A stretch of DNA of 63,999 nt, filler included, from 6 parts of 6 records of this genome joined end to end with filler, not necessarily neighbours in it, one strand, 5' to 3'. Positions 81 through 58,931 are shown, counted from the first letter of the whole stretch. A program made the numbers and translations. The notes: a model not told the origin generated them from the sequence alone.

Positions 81-1373
81 TTAAAGAACCGTTCCGTTTG
101 GTAATACAGATCCCTTGGGGATAACAATTATACCATCTCGGATCGTATGGGTTTCATATTCACCATCAGGTCTGTCCATCGAATCAATACCGATACGACA
201 ACCGTCACCAATTCGGACATTGGTATCAATTATCGCTTTACGTATTATTGTTCCACGGCCAATTCCGATATTCGGGATACCGTTAATCCTATTTTGTTCC
301 TTTTCTTCATCGGTTTCATAAAATGTTGCCCCCATACAGTAAACACCATCAAGGTTTGCGCCTGATTCAATGAGGGTACGGACACCAATGATGGAATTCA
401 CAATTGATGCATTGGTGATGATACTGCCTTCACTGGTAAGTGATTGACTTATGGTGCAGAAGTTGATTTTTGTAGCCGGCAGATGGCGTCGGTGTGTATA
501 GATAGGCATATGTTCATTGTAGAAGTTGAAATCGGGAGAGAGGGATGCAAGATTGAGGTTAGTATCATAAAAAGATTTAATTGTTCCAATATCTTCCCAG
601 AAATCAGTAAATATATGAGTTTGAACTTTCACTTTCTTCATGGTTTCCGGGATTATTTCCTTACCAAAATCAGTTTTATCATTATCTAGTGCTTTCTCCA
701 TGGTTGAGGCATTGAATATATAGATTCCCATTGATGCCAGATATTCAGTAGATTCAACTTTCTCACTGGAGGGAATTGCTTTCTTGCGTAATGTGTCCGG
801 TATTTTATATTCACTAATATCCATCTCTATAGGCGGTTTTTCTATAAAAGATGTTATTTGTCCGCTTTCATCAGCACCAATAATACCAAGACCGGTGGCT
901 TCCTCTCGGGATATCGGTTTTGCAGCGATAGTGAGTTCCGCCTTACTTTCGATATGTGTTTTCAGCATATCCTTATAATTCATCCTATAGAGCTGGTCGC
1001 CTGAAAGTATAATATAAAATTTTGGCTGCTGATCATGAAAGTGCCTTATATTCTTACGAACCGCGTCCGCGGTACCTTGATACCAGTCTTCACTCATCGG
1101 AGTCTGTTCTGCTGCCAGGACCTCAACAAATCCTTGTGAAAATGTATCAAAAATATAGGTGTTTGCTATATGGTTGTGCAGGGAGGCGGAGTTGAATTGT
1201 GTGAGAATATAAATTCGACGAATATCACTGTTAATGCAGTTAGAAATCGGGATATCGACTAATCTGTATTTACCGCCAAACGGAACTGCCGGTTTTGACC
1301 TGTCTGTAGTTAATGGTCTCAGCCTTGTTCCCTTTCCACCGCCTAATACCAATGCCAGAACATGTTTATTCAT
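81..1373 (-). CDS. glgC: Glucose-1-phosphate adenylyltransferase (ADP-glucose pyrophosphorylase)
   Basis: LGGGKGTRLRPLT..RSKPAVPFGGKYRLVD, WYQGTADAV, ILSGDQLY, FWEDIGT motifs; directly downstream of glgA. Confidence 0.97.
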   Translation of the reverse strand: MNKHVLALVLGGGKGTRLRPLTTDRSKPAVPFGGKYRLVDIPISNCINSDIRRIYILTQFNSASLHNHIANTYIFDTFSQGFVEVLAAEQTPMSEDWYQGTADAVRKNIRHFHDQQPKFYIILSGDQLYRMNYKDMLKTHIESKAELTIAAKPISREEATGLGIIGADESGQITSFIEKPPIEMDISEYKIPDTLRKKAIPSSEKVESTEYLASMGIYIFNASTMEKALDNDKTDFGKEIIPETMKKVKVQTHIFTDFWEDIGTIKSFYDTNLNLASLSPDFNFYNEHMPIYTHRRHLPATKINFCTISQSLTSEGSIITNASIVNSIIGVRTLIESGANLDGVYCMGATFYETDEEKEQNRINGIPNIGIGRGTIIRKAIIDTNVRIGDGCRIGIDSMDRPDGEYETHTIRDGIIVIPKGSVLPNGTVL

Positions 1374-2843
1374 GAGGTCCTCCCAAAGTAAAAAGTTTAG
1401 AATATAAAGAAATATATTTTTCAGTAGATTTTTCCCAAGAAAACCTTTTATCCATACAGCGCTTTCTTATTTCACTTTTTTGTACATCGGTACTGCCTTC
1501 CCATATGTGTACGGCATTTTCTACCGCATCATAAATAGCTTCTCCAGACATGCTGTCAAATACTATACCGGTACCTTCGTTAAAATTTTCAGAAAATTGC
1601 GCTACAGTATCTGCCAAACCGCCTGTTTTTCGCACAATAGGTATAGTTCCATACCGCAGTGAATATGTCTGATTCAATCCACAAGGTTCATATCTGCTGG
1701 GCATAAGAAAAAAGTCTGAACCAGCCTCAATGAGATGGGCAAGATAGTTGTTAAACGTGATTGAAACGGCAATATTGTCATATCTTTCAGAGATTGATGT
1801 TAATGCGGTTTCCAGCTCTTCCTCACCTGTTCCAACAATGACAAACTGAATGGCAAAATCTCTTAAAATACGTTCCAGCGCAGAATTATCACCTCCGCAT
1901 AATTCTCGAAAACCTTTCTGGTCTGCTAATCTTGATACTATTCCAATAATTGGAATGCTGTTGTCAATCGGAAGTTTAAAATGCTGCTGGAGTATTGTTT
2001 TCAGTTCAGATTTATTTGCCTGTGCATTGCTGGAATAGTGCAGGGGTAAAAGTGTATCAGTTTCCGGATTCCACTCAGTGTAATCAACTCCATTGATAAT
2101 GCCGGTTAAAACATCTTTTCTGGCATGAAGCAGAAGATGCAGTCCTTCTCCATAGTGACTTTCCTGAATTTCTTTTGAATATGTTTCGGATACTGTCGTT
2201 ATGCTATCGCAATAGGCAAGTCCGACTGCCAGAAAATTTATATTTTGAAGATTTCTTTTTCTCCGGTTAACAGTCCTAATGAGAAATCATCTGCCGGTAA
2301 CTGAGTAAAATGCATATCATGTTTGGGGAATATCCCCTGATATCCCAAATTATGAATGGTCATCATGCTTTTAGCTGCGGAAAAAAGACGGTTGGTTTTT
2401 CTCTTTAACATAAGTGGTAACAAACCGGTTGGCCAGTCATGACAATGAAAAATGTCTGGATACCAGCTTAATCTTCTGCACACTTCAAACACTGCATAGG
2501 TGAAAAGAGTAAAGCGGAAACTGTTATCTGCATAGGGCATATTCCCGGTTTCACCATAAATGCCGATTCTGCTGCTGAAAGATTCATGATCAACAAAAAT
2601 GAATTCAACATCTTTTTCAACTATTTTTGCGGTACGAATGTAGTGGTCATCGCCGATATGAATTTTTATTTTCCATGGGAAGAAATCGAATGATGATGAA
2701 TCTATAAATCCGTATAGAGGCATGATGATTTTAGCATCATGTCCCTTCAGTTTTATGTTATGTGCCAACGCTGTGACAACATCTGCCAACCCTCCCGATT
2801 TGGCAAACGGAACAGCCTCACTGGTGACCATAAGTATTTTCAT
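1366..2843 (-). CDS. glgA: Glycogen synthase; split by one frameshift near 2255 (A-run), probably a sequencing error
   Basis: N-terminal PFAKSGGLADV and HCHDW (ORF 2238-2843); the downstream frame continues through SRLADQKG to MPSRYEPCGLNQ..TGGLADTV (ORF 1366-1704). Confidence 0.93.
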
Positions 2844-2933
2844 ATTTTAATTAGAGCATGTATATAATACAGAGTCAAGCAAATGTAATTTTTTACGCAG
2901 CTGCGATAAATAATTTTTTGTTAAAAGATACGT

Positions 2934-6240: not shown

Positions 6241-6281
6241 AGTACCTGCTTTATATCGACAAGTTAGTTTGATAAGGAAAA

Positions 6282-6455
6282 ATCCCCGCAGTGCCGCTTA
6301 AAACGAAATCTCTTGAACTTTGTTTGTCCAAGTGGGTCCTCTGTCCGCTGCATCCTGTTCCGGTATTCCCGGAGCAATTCAACAGCAAAACTATGAAGTC
6401 CCTTATGATAAGTTTGACCCAAGAGACATGTGTTTTGCCCGAACACCGCAGGTTG
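6282..6455 (-). ncRNA. ssrS: 6S RNA
   Basis: About 175 nt directly downstream of zapA (conserved zapA-ssrS synteny). 5' CCUGCGGUGUUC pairs with 3' GCGGCACUGCGGGG; inner arms UCUCUUGGGUC/GUUCAAGAGA and GACCCACUUG flank a central bubble. Confidence 0.85.
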
Positions 6456-6480
6456 TTAATTACTTCTAATCAGCTGAAAA

Positions 6481-12263: not shown

Positions 12264-12363
12264 NNNNNNNNNNNNNNNNNNNNNNNNNNNNNNNNNNNNN
12301 NNNNNNNTTAATTAATTAANNNNNNNNNNNNNNNNNNNNNNNNNNNNNNNNNNNNNNNNNNNN
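12264..12363. other. Artificial contig linker
   Basis: N-run + TTAATTAATTAA (stops in six frames) + N-run. Confidence 0.99.
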
Positions 12364-26246: not shown

Positions 26247-26346
26247 NNNNNNNNNNNNNNNNNNNNNNNNNNNNNNNNNNNNNNNNNNNNTTAATTAATT
26301 AANNNNNNNNNNNNNNNNNNNNNNNNNNNNNNNNNNNNNNNNNNNN
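26247..26346. other. Artificial contig linker
   Basis: N-run + TTAATTAATTAA + N-run. Confidence 0.99.
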
Positions 26347-33163: not shown

Positions 33164-33975
33164 TCAATATCCTTGGTCGTATATTAGCCAAGGGCTGTTT
33201 ATATCTTCTCTTATCATTATAAAAGCCCATCTTTCATAAGTACCCTCATTATACGGTGAATTCTTATTTTTCAAAGACACATCATAGTCAACTTGTATTA
33301 TAATTGTATTCCCGTCTTTTTTATCTTTATGATAACTGAATTTACTTTGAAATATCGGGTCATATTCATAGATTTTTAATAGTTTGAAACTTTCATTTCC
33401 TTTTAAAGCTTCATTGCTATAATTATTCCTATTGTCATTCGTATACATAACTGACTTAAGAAGCTCAATATCTTTTTCGTTTCGAGCTTTAAAGTATTTT
33501 TTATTGTGCTCTTTGCATTTTCAATGTCACTATCGCTAAAACCATAAACAGTATCTGTGTTTTCGGATGGACTATTTTGAGAAACAGGGTATTTAAGCAT
33601 CAGTTCATCTAAATAGTTTTCGAGTTGGCTGTTTTTTATATTAAATTGTTCATTGTCATATGCAACTGTTATAAAACCTTGTGTCCCGTACCATAATATG
33701 ATCTCGTCCTTATTATCTAGTGTAATCGTCGCGCTTTTCAGGTGCGTTGTTCCTGCATCATCTGTATATGTTTTGGACTCGTTTATTAAGTCTGATATAT
33801 TATCAAGTGCATCTGCATGCTCACTATCTAAATTGCAAACGACTTTGCTGTCCGCACTAGAAACATCCATAATGCATAGTGATTCGATTTTAAGATTATT
33901 TAAAATATCTTCGCTTGGTCTACAACCAGTAAAATATAATATCAATAAAAAAGTAATAAAAGTTAATTTTCTCAT
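33164..33975 (-). CDS. Lipoprotein with C-terminal DUF4829-like domain; frameshifted
   Basis: Lipobox FTGC; C-terminal frame WAFIMIREDINSPWLIYDQGY. Confidence 0.6.
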
Positions 33976-34097
33976 TTTTTCACCTCTTAAATAGTATACC
34001 AAGTATTAACCAATATTATATAAAAATAATGTTAATAGAATATGTTTATCGTCAATAGTAATAAAATACAAAGGGTATGATAATTTCGACACTCTGA

Positions 34098-34183: not shown

Positions 34184-36113
34184 TTACTTATTTTCCTCAA
34201 TCGCATCAATACGCATTTGCAGTTCTTTTAAATCTTTAAAGCGTCCTTTTTCAATATCTTTTTCCAGCTTTCTTCGTTGAAAAGAAATAAACAACTGATC
34301 TAAGTCATATCCATGTGGATAAAGCTCTTCGCGCCGTCTGTCCAGCTTCGTTCTTTTTCATAAATATTTGTATACTCACCATCATCAAAAGTGACAACTG
34401 TATAATCCGAAATTTTATGTTCAAATACTAAACTGAACTTTTTAGATTCGGTTAAAAAAACTCTATCTCCTTTGTTGTAAATAGTTCTTGCTTCATCGAT
34501 TCCTTCGCTTTTTCTGGTTATTTCTTCAACTCGGCTTTTCTTTTTAGCAAACTTTTTCACTTCTTTTACCTTAACGATATCGTGCCTAGAATTTATACTC
34601 TTAACTCTGTTGATGATTTTTCTGGCAACCCTAATTGTTTAGATATCCAAAGAGCATTGCTTTGTCCTGCAACACCAATTTTGAGTTTAAACAGTGGCTG
34701 TAATGTTTTTTTATTGAAGTCCATTGAAGCGTTAATAAACCCTTCATGTACTTCGCTATATTCTTTAATCTTACTATAATGTGTGCTGACAACTGTAATT
34801 CCACCTCTGCTATAAATTTCTTCCAAAATAGCAATGCCCAATGCCGCACCATCCTTTGGGTCCGTTCCTGTTCCGATTTCATCAATCAACACTAATGTTC
34901 TTCTCGATGATTTATTCACAATTTCAACTAGGTTTTTCATATGTCCTGAAAAAGTTGATAGAGATTGCTCTATGCTCTGTGAATCACCGATCTCCACAAG
35001 TATTTTGTTAAAAATCGAGATGGAGCTCCCCGAGCCTACTGGAGGAAGTATACCACTTTGTGTCATTAGTGCTATTAGGCCAATAGTCTTTAATACAATT
35101 GTTTTTCCGCCCGTGTTTGGACCTGTAACAACTATTGTTCGGTAATCGGTTCCGATTGTGATATCGAGAGGAACAGCTTCTTTACCCAGCATTGGATGTC
35201 TTGCTTTTTTAAGATCAATAACTTCATCATCGCGTATTTCAATTTCGTTCCCGCCAATATCTACAGAATATTTACCTTTTGCAAAAATAAAGTCGTATTT
35301 ACCAATAACCTTTGTCATGTCCTTGATTTGCGAAATATTTTCTAAAACCATACCCGTTAAGGTAGTTAAAATTTGATAACACTCTTCTTCCTCTTGCGCT
35401 TTATACATCATTATTTCAACAGTTAAATTCTTTATTGGATCAATTTCAATAAAGACAGTTGAACCAGAGCTAGAGGAGCTTATGACTGTACCTTGAACCA
35501 ATTTTCTTGCAGAAGCCTTAATTGGTATTACATATCTTTCGTCTCGTTGTGTATAGTAGTTTTCTTGTAGATACTTTGCGTTTTTACTAGAAGTTAGAAA
35601 CTTATTAAGCCTTTCAAGTCTCTTTTGGTGTAAAGCTTCTATCTTGTTTCTGAGTTTTTCTAAATTTTTACTTGCACGAGAATGCACCATGCCGTTTTCA
35701 ATGCAAAACTCTATCTCGTTTTCTATAGCTTCAAAATTACCAAGCCCTAAAGAATAAGAGTAAAGCACAGGCGCTGATAGCTCATATGTGCTTATAGATT
35801 TTTTCAATTGCCTTGCACATCTTAAAAAATCAGAAATCTTTATAAGATCATCTGGTTGTAGTATTATCTGCTTTTCGATCTTTTTTAGATATGGATTTAT
35901 ATCGTTTATGCCACCAAGCGCAAAGCCTTTGCCTCCAGAGAAAATATTGACTGCCTCTTTTACTTCTTCATATTCCTGCAAAATAATTTTGGGATTTGTT
36001 TTTGGAACCATCTGCTTAACTAACTCTGCGCCCAAATTACTTGCTGTATATTTTTTTATACTCTGTTTAATATCATTATAACCAAGTATGTCTATTGCTT
36101 TTTCTATGCTCAA
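34184..36113 (-). CDS. Short MutS2-family ATPase lacking the Smr domain (about 640 aa; frameshifts near 34620 and 34340)
   Basis: TTG start after AAGGAGG; RDERYVIPIK, SSSGSTVFIE, ARHPML, TGPNTGGKT, STFSGHM, IDEIGTGTDP, STHY; KOW-like YNKGDRVFL; ends YPHGYDLDQLF..RKLEKDIEKG..ENK* at 34184. Confidence 0.85.
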
Positions 36114-36154
36114 TTTTGTTTCCTCCTTACAGTACTCTGTATTTTTAAAAATAC

Positions 36155-36183
36155 AAAAAAATCGCAATTAGATTAATTACGAT
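36155..36183 (-). terminator. Leader (attenuator) terminator upstream of the MutS2-like gene
   Basis: AUCGUAAUUA-AUC-UAAUUGCGAU followed by UUUUUU, about 40 nt before the start codon. Confidence 0.8.
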
Positions 36184-36427
36184 CAAACAGATATCTTTTT
36201 TACGAATATGGGAATCTATTTAACTGTTTTCATAAAAGAAAAGTCAAAAAGTTAAAAAATCCATATTATGAAGTTTGATATTTTGATAAGTGAAGTAACT
36301 TAATCTAATTCTATCAACACTTTATTAAAATCGTAAATCAAATTAGGGATAACAATATACCCACAATGCTTTTTTAGCATCATTTAAATTTAATTATTAC
36401 GAAAACCAAAGTGTTATTTTGATACCT

Positions 36428-36449
36428 TTAGTTAAGATAATACACTCAA
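36428..36449 (-). CDS. Putative leader peptide: TTG-start MSVLS* (36449-36432) or GTG-start MYYLN* (36445-36428)
   Basis: Strong SD GGAGG at 36460-36456; both readings overlap the anti-antiterminator. Confidence 0.6.
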
Positions 36450-36494
36450 AAAATTCCTCCATATTATAAATTTTATAAGTTGTAATATAAATGA

Positions 36495-36523
36495 ATACTA
36501 ACATTTAGCATTATATATGTCAA
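36495..36523 (-). promoter_or_regulatory. SigA promoter of the MutS2-like leader
   Basis: TTGACA (36523-36518)-17 bp-TAGTAT (36500-36495) with TG extension. Confidence 0.8.
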
Positions 36524-36762: not shown

Positions 36763-38135
36763 ATGAGGAGTCAAAGAAAAAAGGTATAACGCTTTCTTAT
36801 ATAAATATGATTTTTGGAATAATTCTTGGATTACTAAACTCAAAGATTATAGTCCAATTTGTATCTCAAAGCGATATTGGCGTATATGCTACTTTAGGGT
36901 CATTGATTGCAGTTATGGGCATTTTAGATTTTGGTTTTGCAGGAACTATAATTAGATACTACACAAAATCACTTGCACTAGAAAATGAAATTGATCAACA
37001 GAATACATTAGCTACAGGTGCTTTGATATATGTTGTGATTTCAATGATTATAGTTATAGTAGGGTTTTTACTCTTTCCTTTAATCGAGATTATATATAAA
37101 GTTTCTTTTACTGATCCGCAATTGATTCTTGCAAAGAGAATATTTATAATAATGATAATTAACTTTGTTCTTTCGATTTGTACAAATGTTTACAATGCTG
37201 TAATAACTTCTCATGAACGATTTGTTTTTGCTAATGCCATTGGTATAGCAAAAGCAATTATTAGTCCAATTTTAATATATATGTTGCTCTATAAAACAGG
37301 GAATATTATGGTAGTAGTTATTATCCATACAACTGTAAATATATTAGGAATAGTAGCAAAGATTCTCTACTCACACGTTAATCTCAAAATAGTGATTAAA
37401 TTCCACTATTTTGACAAAAAATTATTTGCAGCTATAACAGGCTTTGCTTTTTTTGTTTTTCTTAACATGGTAATGGATAAACTATATTGGTCTACAGATA
37501 ATCTCATATTGACGGCTGTTGCAGGTCCTGTAATGACGTCTGTATACGCATATTCGGGAACACTTACAAGATACTATCTCAACTTTTCTTCTCAGATCGC
37601 GAGTGTTTTTTTGCCAAAGATCACTACAATTTCAACCAATACTGATGATATGACAGAGTTAAATGAGATTTTTTTAAAAGTTGGAAGATTTCAATATATC
37701 ATTATTATGCTTATTCTCTCAGGTTTTATTATATTCGGCAAGGAATTTATTACGGATTACTGGCTAAATGAAAACTTTGAAAACGCTTATTATTTTGCAC
37801 TTATATTAATGATACCTCTTGTTGTACCGCTTATACAAAATACTGGCATTTCAATTTTACAGGCAAAAAATAAGCATAGATTCAGGAGCATTATTTATGT
37901 GCTAATTGCCATTTTAAATTTTGCTTTATCAATTCCGCTTGCAAAGGTCTATGGTGGTTATGGATGCGCAATTGCAACTGCGGGCTCACTAATATTAGGA
38001 CAATGGGTTATCATCAATTTATATTATAAGAAGAAAATTGGAATTGCAGTTGGAATATTCTTTAAGCATATTATAAAAATGTCTTTACCAATGATTATAG
38101 TAGCTAGTCTTAGCTACTATTTGAATTCACTTGTT
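36763..38135 (+). CDS. Polysaccharide flippase (Wzx/MOP family); early frameshift; 3' truncated
   Basis: GGAGG + ATG at 36763; LDFGFAGTIIRY, ERFVFAN, LYWSTD, LQAKNKHRFRS; many TM helices. Confidence 0.85.
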
Positions 38136-38235
38136 NNNNNNNNNNNNNNNNNNNNNNNNNNNNNNNNNNNNNNNNNNNNTTAATTAATTAANNNNNNNNN
38201 NNNNNNNNNNNNNNNNNNNNNNNNNNNNNNNNNNN
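38136..38235. other. Artificial contig linker
   Basis: N-run + TTAATTAATTAA + N-run. Confidence 0.99.
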
Positions 38236-50013: not shown

Positions 50014-50113
50014 NNNNNNNNNNNNNNNNNNNNNNNNNNNNNNNNNNNNNNNNNNNNTTAATTAATTAANNNNNNNNNNNNNNNNNNNNNNNNNNNNNNN
50101 NNNNNNNNNNNNN
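50014..50113. other. Artificial contig linker
   Basis: N-run + TTAATTAATTAA + N-run. Confidence 0.99.
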
Positions 50114-56450: not shown

Positions 56451-58831
56451 CTATCTGAAATCGAATTTATCGCTGATTGGGGACGCGCTGTGGATGAAAA
56501 GATTATCCTCAGATGCCGTCATGGAAAAAATCTTGACACGCGCATCTCTCGGAAGCTGAATGGAACCCACTTCATCAGGTAGATCAATGCGGATGCGGTA
56601 TAGGTATCCGAAATAACAGGGAAAATCTGCACCACCGCCATGCATATGAGAAGCATGCCATTCGAGCCGTTCGCGTTTCATGAAACCCGGATCGATACGC
56701 AGGCAGCGATTCTTCCAGATGTAGTCACGAGGTTCACGGGGAGGATGCTCCCAGACACGTGTATCATACTGTCCGATAAATCCCGACATGGCTGGTATTT
56801 TTACGACAATCTCTTTATCGGGAGCTTCTGGAAATCTGAAAACAGCATCGGTTTCCGAATCTGCAGCAGCCAGAATATAGATCGTATCTGCCCGTACCCC
56901 TGGTAAAATATCTGGGACGGTAAGCAGTTCTCCTCCGCAGGCAAGTACGTTATAGGTGTCTGAATTCTCAATACGGAATGGAATTGGACCGTTATGTATT
57001 GTTTGAGGCATTGTCTCCTGCGGAAACAGAGGACCGCTTGCAGCTGCTGCATCACCATTGGTGGAAATTATTTGCGTATTGCGCGGAAAATCCATATAGT
57101 GGAAAGCCATTGGGCGGGCACTCTTTTTTCCATTGGCTGAAGCCAGGCGTACACGGAAAGCGGTAAGACCGTTTCTGGGAAGATCGAATAGTATACCCAT
57201 TCCATTCCAGTCACATCCCCCTGCATACTGCTCCTGGCCATCTACCATGAACGCTTCCAGAATGCGTGAGGTAAAAACGATTTCAGCCTGTTTCAGCGGC
57301 AGTCCCCAATTTTCTTTCACCCGAATTATATAGGAATCGGAAACATCCACGGACTCCTCCATTTTGCAGGCGATGACTGACACCTGAGAAGTTGAAAGTG
57401 TGAAAAAACTGATGGCAGCAGGCAGCAGTTTATCGGGCTGTATGGTATTCTTGCGCAGCTTGGGATGAAATGCCCGTATCGGCAGCCTGAATTGCTCGGA
57501 CAGCTGTTCGGTTCCGGCTTCAATATGTGTTCTCCGGTGGGGGTATAGAGCATAATATATATGGTGCTCACCCCAATCCTGACTGAACTGGTCTCTGAAT
57601 GTATATGTGAATGGTGATCGGCCGGGTGTATACAGCAGGGTGTGCCGCAGCAGATCATCTTCCGGAATATCGTACCCATACTTATCCGGCGATATAATGG
57701 AAAAACCATAATTTTTAGAGACATCGGTGTGGTCGATCCAGAACCTTGACGGGAACTCGTACTGATCTCTGGTATTTACCGAATGTCTTGTTCTCGATGT
57801 TTCCCAGTTGGATGCAGTATCAGGGTTTTTTACGGTCAGAGGAAATCCAACCTTTAGTGAAACACCTTTTTCAGACCAGGAAATATGTTCATGTATATGA
57901 ATCAGCTCCTCGCACCCTACCGCGTGAAGCGAAATGTGTTTTGTTATTCGGGATGATTTTCCAAGCGGAAAATCGATACTCACGGAGGCTCGTAACGGTC
58001 CTTGCTCATTGATCAGAATCCTCGCTGTCTCCTGTGATACGATGTTGTAACGTTTTCGTCGATCTTTCCAGTCCATATTCCAGGCTGGAAAAGAAATGGC
58101 CGCTCTTTCTGCAGTGAATAAAAAAGAGGTGCTTCCAGAAATTCCTTTCCGGGGTTATCTCCCTGAGGTTTCAGATAGATTGATGTAACAACTCCGTCAT
58201 TGGAGATAGCAATTCGGTACAGCCGGTTCTCCATCTGAATACCGGTAATTGTATTTTTTGCAGTCGCGGGAAACTCAATTGATGCTTTGCGGCTTTCCAG
58301 CCCTTCATGCGTTCTGAGCAGTTTCCAGGAAGACGATTCCATTTTTACCGCCATGAGGACATTGGCCCTGTTGCCGCGTTGGTCGAGAATCTGAATGGGT
58401 ATTTCGCTGCCGTCAGTCTCCTTTATCTTCAGCCTGCTGGAAAAATCGACATTATCGACAATACTGTTCACAATGGCAGTACGAGTTGTCGGTACAGGAT
58501 TAAAAAGCAGTAAATCCTGTGTTTTATATGGAACATTCTGATTGGAATCCGCAGTGACGGCTTCTTTCAGAAGCGGCATTCTCTGCGCAATGGATTCAGC
58601 GGCATCTTCAAGAACGGTTTGAAAATAGTGCATGGCAGTGACTGCATTATTGTAAGCAAACGTATAGGCTTTTGGTGTGCTGGTACCAGGAAGTATATCG
58701 TGCATCTGGTTGCCTATTAACAGCTGCCAGGCTTTGGCTAGTTTTTCTCCTGGATATTTTGTGCCGTTAATCCAGTTAGCCATGACCGCTGCAGCTTCTG
58801 CCGTGAATGCGGCCCGTTCCAATTGGCTGTT
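56451..58831 (-). CDS. Alpha-mannosidase (GH38), C-terminal part; 5' truncated; frameshift near 58090
   Basis: NQMHDILPGTS GH38 middle-domain motif, LFNP, MENRLYRI, GPLRAS, YEFPSRFWID, KYGYD. Confidence 0.85.
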
Positions 58832-58931
58832 NNNNNNNNNNNNNNNNNNNNNNNNNNNNNNNNNNNNNNNNNNNNTTAATTAATTAANNNNNNNNNNNNN
58901 NNNNNNNNNNNNNNNNNNNNNNNNNNNNNNN
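58832..58931. other. Artificial contig linker
   Basis: N-run + TTAATTAATTAA + N-run. Confidence 0.99.

What the first reader, a model, noticed from the sequence alone, without database searches (positions are those of the whole stretch)
34184..36523. Smr-less MutS2 paralogue under a micro-uORF attenuator: candidate antibiotic-inducible ribosome-splitting factor
Seen in sequence (minus strand): (1) promoter TTGACA-17-TAGTAT at 36523-36495; (2) SD GGAGG with a 5-codon uORF (TTG MSVLS* or GTG MYYLN*); (3) a long imperfect hairpin pairing CUUAACUAA (uORF end, 36436-36428) with UUAGAUUAAG (36308-36299), AACACUUU with AAAGUGUU, and UCGUAA with UUACGA; (4) the sequestered strand AAUUAGAUUAAGUUAC (36310-36295) is complementary, with one bulge, to GUAAUUAAUCUAAUU, the 5' arm and loop of an intrinsic terminator (36183-36155) just before the gene. 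These structures are mutually exclusive: a ribosome stalled on the uORF would free the antiterminator. The gene has the MutS2 ATPase, coiled-coil and KOW-like parts but ends without Smr. Established: this leader logic controls antibiotic-induced ribosome protection and rescue genes (B. subtilis vmlR, Listeria lmo0919/vgaL and hflXr), and B. subtilis MutS2/RqcU splits collided ribosomes. Inference: this is a MutS2 counterpart of HflXr, an inducible rescue or resistance factor. I do not know of it being characterised.
Basis: partly seen in the sequence, partly recalled or inferred. Interest (0 to 1): 0.88.

Follow-up and report, generated by a model that had tools for sequence, protein, structure and literature searches.

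The report
Inducible Smr-less MutS2 ribosome-rescue candidate
A shortened relative of the ribosome-splitting protein MutS2 sits behind a tiny upstream reading frame and a transcription stop signal of the same kind that controls tetracycline-resistance genes, so it is probably switched on when ribosomes are blocked and may be an unrecognised drug-tolerance factor.

Summary
The gene belongs to a distinct clade of MutS2 relatives of about 640 aa, widespread in Bacillota. It has the MutS2 core with intact ATPase motifs, a KOW-like barrel and a conserved C-terminal helical motif. It has no Smr domain and almost no coiled coil.

Its two frameshifts are most likely assembly errors. Contigs from a public run add one base at exactly both A-runs, and two other genes in the window are split.

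The leader is conserved. In 26 of 46 paralogue loci it has a Shine-Dalgarno sequence, a 3-8 codon uORF (MSVxS*/MSVxVLN*), a covarying helix over the uORF, and a terminator. A model built from these leaders also finds the tet(W) leader and leaders of an RsgA-like GTPase, a BpsA_C protein and a GNAT.

Weak points are the window's own AT-rich leader and the equilibrium folding tests, which do not show a switch. Induction and ribosome splitting are untested. I found no paper on this in six full-text searches. The scan has no earlier finding of it.

The parts
36495..36523 (-). Candidate sigma-70 promoter, TTGACA-17-TAGTAT with TG before the -10 hexamer
   Evidence: 10 of 12 matches. Promoter-like sites are not enriched over shuffles in this region. 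The neighbouring gene at 36807 is divergent, so the leader needs its own promoter.
36456..36460 (-). Shine-Dalgarno GGAGG of the uORF
   Evidence: A Shine-Dalgarno-like sequence 4-11 nt before the uORF start is present in all 25 group-A leaders listed. These leaders were picked by a Shine-Dalgarno plus short-ORF scan, so this count is not independent.
36432..36449 (-). Micro-uORF TTG AGT GTA TTA TCT TAA (MSVLS*)
   Evidence: Homologous to MSVVS* in L090, L091 and L176-L179 and to MSVxVLN* in more distant relatives. Read-derived contigs show T7 instead of T6 just before the start codon, which does not change the frame.
36295..36310 (-). Strand that pairs either with the uORF end or with the terminator 5' arm and loop (proposed antiterminator)
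   Evidence: It is the best partner of the terminator within the leader (-13.2 to -13.7 kcal/mol). The homologous strand is the best partner in 5 of 7 sub-clade leaders.
36154..36183 (-). Intrinsic terminator: 9-11 bp AT-rich stem with a G-U pair, followed by a run of seven Ts
   Evidence: -6.4 to -8.7 kcal/mol. Homologous to CCGTGATT..AATCACGG-T6 in relatives. Missed by the consensus scan.
36122..36128 (-). Shine-Dalgarno AAGGAGG of the main gene
34184..36113 (-). Smr-less MutS2 paralogue gene (TTG start 36113, stop 34186-34184), read in three frames in this assembly
   Evidence: TIGR01069, 569.5 bits, profile positions 2-502 of 790; 77% identity to an intact 642-aa protein.
34617..35135 (-). 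ABC ATPase domain (MutS domain V) with Walker A, signature, Walker B and H-loop
   Evidence: PF00488, E 1.3e-31. The motifs are invariant in 42 family members.
34617..34621 (-). First apparent -1 frameshift: a run of five As where six are needed
   Evidence: The contig from run X1 has one extra base here.
34354..34358 (-). Second apparent -1 frameshift: a run of five As where six are needed
   Evidence: The contig from run X1 has one extra base here.
34340..34473 (-). KOW-like five-stranded beta barrel (KGDRV...KR..L)
   Evidence: Models. Fold matches to Spt5 and NusG KOW domains, Z 8.6 and 8.3. Aligns with the KOW region of canonical MutS2, E 7.5e-4, probability 25%.
34187..34330 (-). Conserved C-terminal helical motif ELYPxGYDLDxLF..RKLxKDIxKG that stands where Smr would be
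   Evidence: L-Y-P, Y, F, R and G are invariant in 42 members. No family or fold match.

Best explanation
The locus encodes an intact ATPase of about 642 aa from an old, separate clade of MutS2 (RqcU) relatives. This clade kept the ribosome-splitting core and a KOW-like domain, but lost the coiled coil and the Smr domain and gained a short conserved C-terminal motif.

The gene is transcribed from its own promoter through a leader of about 380 nt. A ribosome loads on a 5-codon uORF at the 5' end of this leader. When that ribosome finishes and leaves, the uORF pairs with a strand about 120 nt downstream, the terminator just before the gene forms, and transcription stops. When the ribosome is held on the uORF, for example by a drug that blocks initiation or early elongation, the downstream strand is free to pair with the 5' arm and loop of the terminator, and RNA polymerase reads into the gene. 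The protein then most likely uses ATP to split or clear blocked ribosomes, as B. subtilis MutS2 does, which would raise tolerance to the inhibitor.

Shown here: the anatomy, the conservation and covariation of the leader, its kinship with the tet(W) leader, the protein's domain make-up, and the likely integrity of the gene. Inferred: stalling as the signal, which drugs act, ribosome binding, and splitting.
For: Protein.
- The 506-aa piece scores 569.5 bits on TIGR01069 mutS2, above the cutoff of 400.
- It aligns with B. subtilis MutS2 from ribosome complexes (7qv3, 8qpp) over residues 4-536 at E 1.7e-110. Foldseek's top hits are MutS2 structures.
- The ATPase motifs are invariant in 42 members.
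- 42 paralogues and 16 canonical MutS2 sequences are separated by one branch with SH-aLRT 100 in a quick, unrooted tree.
- 49 of 151 genomes of one order have two matches at E <= 1e-100, typically one open frame of about 795 aa and one of about 640 aa.

Gene integrity.
- Contigs from run X1 add one base at 34616 and at 34353, which are exactly the two breaks.
- In the same window glgA is split at a run of As, and a GH38 mannosidase is split beside a masked stretch.

Leader.
- Of 46 paralogue loci, 26 have the MSV-type uORF leader and 15 have a second type with a 16-19 codon uORF ending in LLNK*. Three are unclear and two have too little upstream DNA.
- In 13 core leaders, three helices are 83.6% paired, against 34-50% when the partners are slid. 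Fourteen of 23 pairs change on both sides, and 0 of 500 shuffles reach this.
- RNAalifold on 7 close relatives pairs the whole uORF with the downstream strand and finds the terminator: 33 pairs, 6 with compensatory changes.
- The terminator's best upstream partner is that same strand in 5 of 7.
- In truncated transcripts the terminator's 5' arm is more often paired when the uORF is masked: mean 0.47 rising to 0.60, up by more than 0.2 in 5 of 22 and down by that much in none.

Link to drug response.
- The model R1 was built only from paralogue leaders. Of 37 listed hits in 151 genomes, 29 lie before MutS2 paralogues, 2 before tet(W), 1 before an RsgA-like GTPase and 2 before BpsA_C proteins. 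Three were not examined.
- In a sample of 151 Bacilli genomes, 13 of 17 new hits lie before MutS_V open frames and 3 before BpsA_C proteins.
- The tet(W) leader shares the 7-codon uORF, the helix, the hairpin plus U-rich tract, and TTTTTATGC after the terminator.
- tet(W) mRNA rose 52-fold with tetracycline in C. resistens (PMC3350403, passages). R1 hits that plasmid's leader at 30.4 bits.
- tet(M) readthrough is induced by tetracycline, and that preprint cites induction by spectinomycin, lincosamides and streptogramins (preprint 10.1101/2021.03.24.436905, passages).
- B. subtilis lacking mutS2 is hypersensitive to chloramphenicol, tetracycline and erythromycin, and the Walker B mutant is as sensitive to erythromycin as the deletion, whereas KOW and Smr mutants are only modestly affected (PMC10897456, passages).
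Against: - With the uORF masked, the terminator stays in the minimum-energy fold in 22 of 24 leaders. A clean switch appears in only 1 of 24.
- For the window itself, masking changes nothing (0.27 in both states) and the masked MFE does not choose the antiterminator.
- The window's leader is not found by R1 at E <= 1. Its terminator is weak, its uORF helix is -4.8 kcal/mol, and the antiterminator complementarity is matched by 6.5% of shuffles.
- The KOW likeness is weak by sequence: hhalign probability 25%, and the Pfam MSSS domain is faint in 2 of 42 members.
- In canonical MutS2 the KOW and Smr domains recruit the protein to collided ribosomes. A protein without Smr and without the coiled coil may bind differently or not at all.
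- The contigs that mend the frame have depth 3-6, one contig each, and probably come from the sample the window was assembled from.
- The tet(M) preprint found no role for its annotated leader peptide, so even the known relative is not understood mechanistically.
Confidence: 0.6

Rival explanations
1. The leader is a general gauge of translation capacity, for example starvation, slow termination or recycling, or cold, rather than an antibiotic sensor. The protein is a back-up ribosome quality-control factor for such stress.
For: Any ribosome anywhere on a 3-8 codon uORF covers the whole helix strand, so the design does not specify the cause of the delay. Peptide length and sequence vary (MSV*, MSVVS*, MSEVVFN*). 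The stop codon lies inside the conserved helix. The same leader precedes an RsgA-like ribosome-biogenesis GTPase.
Against: The same leader class precedes tet(W), a GNAT acetyltransferase and an MFS transporter, which are typical drug-response genes. tet(W) and tet(M) are drug-induced according to the passages read. The uORF has no run of codons for one amino acid, unlike classical amino-acid attenuators.
Confidence: 0.2
2. In this particular organism the system is decaying: the gene is a true pseudogene and/or the AT-rich leader no longer switches.
For: There are two frame breaks in the assembly. R1 does not hit the window. The terminator and uORF helix are weak, and the window lacks the second terminator that many relatives have.
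Against: Both breaks lack one A in a run of As, and the run's contigs carry the extra base at both. glgA in the same window is split at a run of As, and a GH38 gene is split too. All three frames remain open and similar to intact relatives over their whole length (77%, 49% and 70% identity for the three pieces). The uORF, the partner strand and the terminator are all alignable with relatives.
Confidence: 0.08
3. The protein acts on DNA, in the older view of MutS2 as a suppressor of recombination, and is induced during stress. It has no role on ribosomes.
For: It has the MutS family fold, and structural matches to MutS and MSH proteins follow the MutS2 matches. Eukaryotic MSH4/5 have a MutS2-like architecture without Smr (PMC11275761, passage).
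Against: It lacks MutS domains I and II, as MutS2 does. It has no Smr nuclease. It carries a KOW-like domain, a fold typical of ribosome and RNA polymerase partners. It sits under a translation-sensing leader shared with a ribosomal protection gene.
Confidence: 0.07
4. The protein protects the drug target directly, dislodging the drug as Tet(M) or the ARE-ABCF proteins do, rather than splitting ribosomes.
For: It shares a leader with tet(W). It is an ABC-type ATPase.
Against: There is no likeness to ABCF or EF-G-type factors. The closest solved relatives are MutS2 on collided disomes, a protein reported to split ribosomes.
Confidence: 0.05

Closest known systems
B. subtilis MutS2 (RqcU), sensor and splitter of collided ribosomes
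   Same: Same core: lever/clamp plus ABC ATPase, about 40% identity over some 510 residues, with all ATPase motifs. A KOW-like barrel follows the ATPase. Loss of MutS2 sensitises cells to ribosome inhibitors.
   Different: About 640 aa instead of 785. No Smr domain, and the coiled coil of about 110 residues is reduced to one short helix. A family-specific C-terminal motif. A separate clade that co-exists with the canonical gene. Under a uORF attenuator.
Listeria HflXr with its leader rli80
   Same: The same logic: a paralogue of a housekeeping ribosome-splitting factor, placed behind a short ORF, an anti-antiterminator, an antiterminator and a terminator, and induced by stalled ribosomes (PMC6310831, passages).
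   Different: HflXr is a GTPase, not a MutS-type ATPase. rli80 has a 14-codon ORF with an RLR motif. The R1 model finds nothing real in a Listeria chromosome record: two weak hits, both at gene starts.
Leader of the ribosomal protection genes tet(W)/tet(M)/tet(O) (P_tet, srn0030)
   Same: The tet(W) leader matches the model of the paralogue leaders end to end, at 30 bits. It has a 7-codon uORF (MRQGILK*), a helix from the uORF end to a downstream strand, a hairpin plus U-rich tract, a terminator, and then TTTTTATGC. It is drug-inducible at the transcript level.
   Different: It drives a mobile EF-G-like GTPase rather than a chromosomal MutS2 relative. Its mechanism is itself unsettled. The window's own leader is linked to it only through intermediates (L090, L091 and L178 hit R1; the window does not).
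Plant plastid MutS2A
   Same: A MutS2 duplicate that lost Smr and co-exists with a full-length copy, studied in ribosome quality control (preprint 10.1101/2025.09.02.673837, passages).
   Different: Of cyanobacterial origin and an independent loss. No attenuator. I did not compare the sequences.
Leaders of the ARE-ABCF genes vmlR and lmo0919
   Same: Short uORF plus terminator logic that responds to ribosome inhibitors (recalled; these papers were not read here).
   Different: No sequence or model match was tested for vmlR. Nothing was found in the Listeria record.

Membership tests
MutS2 / RqcU (TIGR01069) | MutS2 core: domains III to V, without the mismatch-binding domains I and II | tested here: met
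   569.5 bits on TIGR01069 against a cutoff of 400, profile positions 2-502 of 790. MutS_V and MutS_III only. Matches the 7qv3 and 8qpp MutS2 sequences at E 1.7e-110. Foldseek's top hits are MutS2.
MutS2 / RqcU (TIGR01069) | Intact ABC ATPase motifs (Walker A, signature, Walker B, H-loop) | tested here: met
   GPNxGGKT, STFS, DE and TH are invariant in 42 members and present in the window's translation.
MutS2 / RqcU (TIGR01069) | KOW domain after the ATPase | tested here: met
   A five-stranded barrel in two models. The best fold matches are Spt5 KOW (Z 8.6, rmsd 2.2, 58 residues aligned) and NusG KOW (Z 8.3, rmsd 0.9, 49 aligned). It aligns in register with the KOW region of canonical MutS2, E 7.5e-4 but probability only 25%. 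The support is mainly by fold; Z near 8 is borderline by the tool's own note.
MutS2 / RqcU (TIGR01069) | C-terminal Smr domain | tested here: not met
   No Smr hit in the window's pieces. None among the 25 families listed of 36 for 42 members at E <= 1. The proteins end about 50 residues after the barrel.
MutS2 / RqcU (TIGR01069) | Long coiled coil between the ATPase and KOW | tested here: not met
   Only one helix, 528-540, in the model. The profile alignment with canonical MutS2 stops at about residue 518-520. The length is 640 aa against 785.
MutS2 / RqcU (TIGR01069) | Binds collided ribosomes and splits them with ATP | not testable with these tools
   Needs biochemistry.
Ribosome-dependent transcription attenuators of resistance genes | Conserved short uORF with its own Shine-Dalgarno sequence at the 5' end of the leader | tested here: met
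   25 leaders, 4 further close relatives, and 17 of 17 model hits in Bacilli with a 7-9 codon ORF at the expected place. The first set was chosen by a uORF scan, and the model includes the uORF, so these counts are not independent.
Ribosome-dependent transcription attenuators of resistance genes | The uORF overlaps one strand of a conserved helix (anti-antiterminator) | tested here: met
   Compensatory changes by clade. 83.6% paired against 34-50% when slid, 14 of 23 pairs with changes on both sides, 0 of 500 shuffles. RNAalifold on the sub-clade.
Ribosome-dependent transcription attenuators of resistance genes | Intrinsic terminator between the uORF and the gene | tested here: met
   A hairpin plus T-run was found in 24 of 25 leaders, though one of them (L023) was the upstream hairpin, not a terminator. 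It is conserved in the sub-clade. In the window it is weak, -6.4 to -8.7 kcal/mol.
Ribosome-dependent transcription attenuators of resistance genes | An antiterminator pairing that excludes the terminator when the uORF is occupied | tested here: inconclusive
   For: the partner strand is the best partner of the terminator in 5 of 7; a copy of the 3' arm lies next to that strand and differs by clade; 5'-arm pairing rises from 0.47 to 0.60. Against: the terminator persists in 22 of 24 masked MFE folds, and there is no change for the window.
Ribosome-dependent transcription attenuators of resistance genes | Readthrough induced by a ribosome inhibitor and dependent on uORF translation | not testable with these tools
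   No RNA run is listed for this DNA. Only literature on tet(W) and tet(M).
   The window has no hit at E <= 1. Its closest relatives do hit: L090 E 0.011 and L091 E 0.035, L178 E 0.0021. The tet(W) leaders score 30 bits. Membership of the window therefore rests on transitive alignment, not on the model.
Rfam families | Match at the gathering score | tested here: not met
   Nothing in the leader, and nothing in 10 related loci, including tet(W).
HflXr | HflX-type GTPase | tested here: not met
   The protein is a MutS-type ABC ATPase. The likeness is in logic only.

The most novel reading that the evidence does not exclude
Bacillota may carry an old chromosomal response to translation inhibitors, wired through one class of heptapeptide-uORF attenuator. 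Its main output would be a dedicated Smr-less MutS2 clade that clears drug-blocked ribosomes by ATP-driven splitting, which would be a new class of intrinsic resistance or tolerance determinant. Side outputs would include an RsgA-like GTPase, a BpsA_C-fold protein and a GNAT. The leader of the mobile tet(M)/tet(O)/tet(W) genes would then be a recruited copy of this chromosomal switch, which would also explain how those clinically important genes are induced.
Probability: 0.3. Interest if true: 0.9.

Novelty: new variant of a known kind. Interest (0 to 1): 0.78.

Why it matters
HflXr showed that a duplicated ribosome-splitting factor under a stalling-sensitive leader can be a resistance gene. 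This would be the second such case, built on a different engine (MutS2). It is far more widespread: about a third of the genomes sampled in one clostridial order have two MutS2-family matches, and members occur in Bacillus, Lysinibacillus, Paenibacillus, Enterococcus and Clostridium.

It gives MutS2 research a natural variant without Smr and without the coiled coil, for asking what recruits the ATPase to ribosomes.

It also ties the long-unsettled tet(M)/tet(W) leader to a large family with enough variation to solve its structure by covariation. And it points to three further unstudied genes under the same switch.

Tried and rejected
- Whole genome of the window: none is held, so I could not ask whether a canonical MutS2 co-exists in this organism.
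- Rfam: no family in the leader or in related leaders.
- RNA evidence: no RNA holder is listed for this DNA. Run X2 gave no cover.
- Equilibrium switch test: masking the uORF leaves the terminator in the MFE fold in 22 of 24 leaders. I treat this as a limit of equilibrium folding for GC-rich local hairpins, but it remains a negative result.
- RNAalifold on the 13 core leaders found only the 7-bp main helix. I therefore wrote the fuller structure by hand before counting pairs, which favours it.
- The first 24-sequence alignment was poor at its 3' side for diverged leaders and was not used for counts.
- Full-length profile comparison did not align the C-termini. Only cut-out sub-profiles did, and weakly.
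- ESM Atlas on residues 540-642: best score 0.79, unnamed clusters, no lead.
- C-terminal helical tail: no fold match. The tool says residues beyond about 94 of the model were barely tested.
- R1 on a Listeria chromosome record: two weak hits, both at gene starts and so false. In the same call the stricter filters missed the pSOL1 hit that one search had found.
- L157 (R1, E 0.044) is the start of a membrane protein gene and so false. The gene after L163 is unclear.
Close relatives came from the genome search instead.
- Literature: six full-text searches returned no paper on a bacterial Smr-less MutS2 paralogue or on its leader. PMC8319848 had nothing on a tet(W) leader. No supplementary files were opened, so lists of drug-induced genes in Term-seq or RNA-seq supplements could still name such a gene.
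- The careful tree search did not finish. The tree quoted is the quick one.
Full report
**1. What is in the window**

- Promoter: TTGACA at 36523-36518 and TAGTAT at 36500-36495. The scan gives 10 of 12 matches with a TG before the -10 hexamer. Promoter-like sites are not enriched there, though: 19 found against 14.7 +/- 3.9 in shuffles.
- uORF: GGAGG at 36460-36456, then a TTG uORF at 36449-36432 (MSVLS*), with an overlapping GTG frame (MYYLN*).
- Switch strand and terminator: the strand AAUUAGAUUAAGUUAC at 36310-36295, and an AT-rich hairpin with a run of seven Ts at 36183-36154.
- Main gene: AAGGAGG, then a TTG start at 36113.

The neighbour at 36807 is divergent, so the leader needs its own promoter.

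The MFE fold of the 389-nt leader contains the long imperfect hairpin and the terminator. Its energy is -81.2 kcal/mol, z = -3.93, and 0 of 100 shuffles fold as well.

In the window alone the switch is only suggestive.
- The antiterminator duplex is -13.2 kcal/mol against -8.7 for the terminator.
- That strand is the best partner of the terminator anywhere in the leader.
- But 6.5% of 200 shuffled leaders do as well.
- The helix at the uORF end is only -4.8 kcal/mol.

**2. The gene and its breaks**

The gene reads in three frames. The first 506 codons score 569.5 bits on TIGR01069 mutS2 (cutoff 400), covering profile positions 2-502 of 790. The only Pfam domains are MutS_V and MutS_III.

The other two pieces match the C-termini of intact relatives of about 640 aa. 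The three pieces are 77%, 49% and 70% identical to P0001. Each break is one missing A in a run of five As (34621-34617 and 34358-34354).

One public DNA run holds 85% of the sampled words of this stretch. Its contigs differ from the window at only three places, each by one extra base in a homopolymer. Two of them are exactly the two breaks. The third is the T-run between the Shine-Dalgarno sequence and the uORF start. The depth is only 3-6, there is one contig at each place, and the run may be the window's own sample.

Two other genes in the window are also split: glgA (Glyco_transf_5 positions 1-191 and 197-238 lie in two overlapping frames at a run of As) and a GH38 mannosidase (next to masked Ns).

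I read the breaks as assembly errors and the gene as intact, at about 90%.

**3. The protein family**
- A search of 5.8 billion proteins returns a dense family of 630-650 aa proteins. The top hit is 77% identical. Sources name members in Helicovermis, Fusibacter, Bacillus cytotoxicus, Cytobacillus, Lysinibacillus, Oceanobacillus and others, always as 'endonuclease MutS2'.
- In 151 genomes of the order of a Fusibacter genome, 137 have a match at E <= 1e-100 and 49 have two. The two are typically an open frame of about 795 aa at about 40% identity and one of about 640 aa.
- In a quick, unrooted tree of the first 510-520 residues or so, 42 paralogues and 16 canonical MutS2 sequences fall on either side of one branch with SH-aLRT 100. 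Bacilli and Clostridia occur on both sides.
- Walker A, the ABC signature, Walker B and the H-loop are invariant in 42 members.
- P0001 aligns with B. subtilis MutS2 of the disome structures over residues 4-536, E 1.7e-110. Its AlphaFold model (pLDDT 80) hits MutS2 structures first.
- After the ATPase there is one short helix, a five-stranded barrel and three or four short helices.
- The barrel alone matches KOW domains best: Spt5 at Z 8.6 and NusG at Z 8.3 and 7.9. It aligns in register with the KOW region of canonical MutS2, E 7.5e-4 but probability only 25%.
- No Smr hit appears in the window's pieces or among the 25 families listed (of 36) for the 42 members.
- The tail ELYPxGYDLDxLF..RKLxKDIxKG is conserved. 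It has no match anywhere I looked.

**4. The leader is conserved, and this is the main result**

I took 46 paralogue loci and read 700 nt upstream of each.
- 26 have a Shine-Dalgarno sequence plus a uORF of 3-8 codons, beginning RTG AGT GTN in most and ending GTT CTT AAC TAA in many. The peptides include MSVxVLN*, MSVVS*, MSEVVFN* and MSV*.
- 15 have a different leader, with a 16-19 codon uORF ending in LLNK*.
- 3 are unclear, and 2 have too little upstream DNA.

The end of the uORF pairs with a strand 90-120 nt downstream, and the two sides change together by clade: TTATC with GATAA, GTTTTTAAC with GTAAAAAC, CTTTTATAG with CTGATAAAAG, and GGTATCTA with TAGATGCC.

For 13 core leaders I wrote three helices by hand. 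They are 83.6% paired against 34-50% when the partners are slid, 14 of 23 pairs change on both sides, and 0 of 500 shuffles reach that.

Terminators follow in 24 of 25 leaders by the script, though the one called for L023 is the upstream hairpin, not a terminator. There are often two in tandem.

Next to the partner strand lies a copy of the terminator's 3' arm, and it differs by clade: CACGG with CCGTG..CACGG in Clostridia, CATAGC with GCTATG..CATAGC in Bacilli.

For the window's own sub-clade I added four metagenome relatives, all with MSVVS*. RNAalifold on the seven leaders pairs the whole uORF, start codon included, with ACTATTAGATTATGAACTGCCAT. It also finds the terminator: 33 pairs, 6 of them compensatory. 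The terminator's best upstream partner is that same strand in 5 of 7.

**5. Tests that went against, or only weakly for, the switch**
- With the uORF masked, the terminator stays in the MFE fold in 22 of 24 leaders. A clean switch is seen in 1 of 24.
- In transcripts cut before the 3' arm, the 5' arm is paired more often when the uORF is masked: mean 0.47 to 0.60, up by more than 0.2 in 5 of 22 and down by that much in none. The Wilcoxon p of 2.6e-4 is on related sequences, so it is not a true probability.
- For the window there is no change.
- The family model R1 does not find the window at E <= 1, although it finds non-training relatives, among them L090 (E 0.011), L091 (E 0.035) and L178 (E 0.0021).

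**6. What else the leader controls**

R1 was built only from paralogue leaders.
- In 151 genomes of the clostridial order it has 37 listed hits in 35 genomes. Of these, 29 lie just upstream of a MutS2 paralogue, 2 before tet(W), 1 before an RsgA-like GTPase and 2 before a 390-aa protein with a BpsA_C domain. Three weak hits were not examined.
- The tet(W) open frame scores 1285 bits on NF033148, and 621 bases of leader plus gene start are 100% identical to tet(W) plasmids.
- In 151 Bacilli genomes, 18 have hits. Of 17 new hits, 13 precede MutS_V open frames, 3 precede BpsA_C proteins and 1 is unclear.
- One Bacillus-like genome has a further copy before a GNAT acetyltransferase.
- The tet(W) leader has the same plan in detail, down to TTTTTATGC after the terminator.
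- A member with this leader lies on C. acetobutylicum pSOL1, next to a TetR gene.
- Rfam has no family for any of these leaders.

**7. Literature**

I saw passages only and opened no supplements.
- B. subtilis MutS2 binds collided ribosomes through its KOW and Smr domains and splits them with ATP. The deletion is hypersensitive to chloramphenicol, tetracycline and erythromycin. The Walker B mutant is as sensitive to erythromycin as the deletion, whereas KOW and Smr mutants are only modestly so (PMC10897456).
- HflXr is induced through a 14-codon ORF attenuator (PMC6310831).
- tet(W) mRNA rises 52-fold with tetracycline by an unknown mechanism (PMC3350403).
- tet(M) readthrough is induced by tetracycline, and the preprint cites induction by spectinomycin, lincosamides and streptogramins. 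Its annotated leader peptide seems dispensable, and 'another putative peptide leader' is suspected (preprint 10.1101/2021.03.24.436905).
- Plant MutS2A lacks Smr (preprint 10.1101/2025.09.02.673837).
- Cerullo et al. 2022 I saw only as a cited reference and as the title of PDB entry 7qv3. Dar et al. 2016 and Su et al. 1992 are recalled, not read.
- Six searches found no paper on a bacterial Smr-less MutS2 paralogue or on its leader.

**8. Reading**

The most likely account (about 0.6) is an intact, inducible MutS2-type ATPase whose transcription is gated by ribosome occupancy of a micro-uORF.

Because even 3-codon versions of the uORF exist, the sensor probably reports arrest at initiation or early elongation. 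That would fit tetracyclines and inhibitors of the peptidyl-transferase centre, but this is inference.

What the protein does on ribosomes without Smr and the coiled coil is open. The window's copy has a weak, AT-rich version of the switch and may be leaky.

**9. Verdict**

It is a new variant of known kinds, worth experiments.

Noticed in passing
L089, L103, L112-L117, L020, L055, L009, L023, L092 (upstream of the paralogue gene); L088:1-197: Many relatives have two terminators in tandem. The second has a sequence-conserved stem (GGCTATAGGTG...CACCTATAGCC plus a T-run) and is often followed by a Shine-Dalgarno sequence and a small ORF of 4-20 codons before the gene. The window lacks it. It may be a second checkpoint.
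   Followed up: partly
L093-L102, L104-L106, L109, L111 (upstream of the paralogue gene): 15 paralogue loci have a second leader type. It has a 16-19 codon uORF ending in (R/E)LL(N/D)K*. The uORF end (CTTAATAAATAAGGAG) forms a hairpin with CTCCTTATTTATTAAG, and a near-copy of the first strand contains the Shine-Dalgarno sequence of the next ORF. This looks like translational attenuation. In five of them a small HTH-like ORF of about 95 aa lies between the leader and the gene.
   Followed up: partly
L150:500-790, L147, L175:322-464: The tet(W) leader carries a 7-codon uORF (MRQGILK*) whose end pairs with a downstream strand, then a hairpin plus U-rich tract and a terminator. This may be the 'other leader peptide' suspected for tet(M) in the preprint read.
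   Followed up: partly
L127 (RsgA-like GTPase), L129/L148/L159/L160/L171 (BpsA_C-domain protein of about 390 aa), L156 (GNAT), L003:1321-2597 (MFS transporter): The same leader class precedes other genes: a second RsgA-type ribosome GTPase, a methyltransferase-fold protein of unknown role (five cases), an acetyltransferase, and weakly an MFS pump. These are candidate members of a regulon that responds to translation inhibitors.
   Followed up: partly
Just after the first terminator in L089, L103, L113, L116, L117, L009 and in tet(W) L150:~755: A conserved ATGC directly follows the terminator's U-tract (TTTTTATGC). The tet(M) preprint reports ribosome binding at an ATG just after its terminator.
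   Followed up: no
window 1369-2846 (-) and 56454-58879 (-): glgA (starch synthase domain split at 2241-2286, at a run of As) and a GH38 alpha-mannosidase are each in two frames. The assembly seems prone to homopolymer errors, so other apparent pseudogenes here deserve the same doubt.
   Followed up: partly
window 33167-34005 (-): The gene just downstream of the paralogue also looks split at runs of As. It is a 200-aa frame with no family hit, overlapping a 118-aa frame that has DUF4829.
   Followed up: no
window 6279-6457 (-): 6S RNA (RF00013), 56.1 bits.
   Followed up: no
window 12264-12363, 26247-26346, 38136-38235, 50014-50113, 58832-58931: Five places, each with two blocks of 44 Ns twelve bases apart. 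One lies at the 3' end of the divergent neighbour gene.
   Followed up: no
L185 (C. acetobutylicum pSOL1, record positions 102908-105797): A paralogue with an R1-type leader (uORF MSV*) sits on the pSOL1 megaplasmid, right after a TetR/AcrR regulator gene and near an MMPL transporter. This is a convenient model organism for tests.
   Followed up: partly
L091 (G003:C1:840658-842583) and G124:C3:51943-53871: the genome search flags one in-frame TAA or TAG inside these two paralogue matches. My own translation of L091 gave an intact 640-aa frame, so the flag for L091 may be the gene's own terminal stop.
   Followed up: partly
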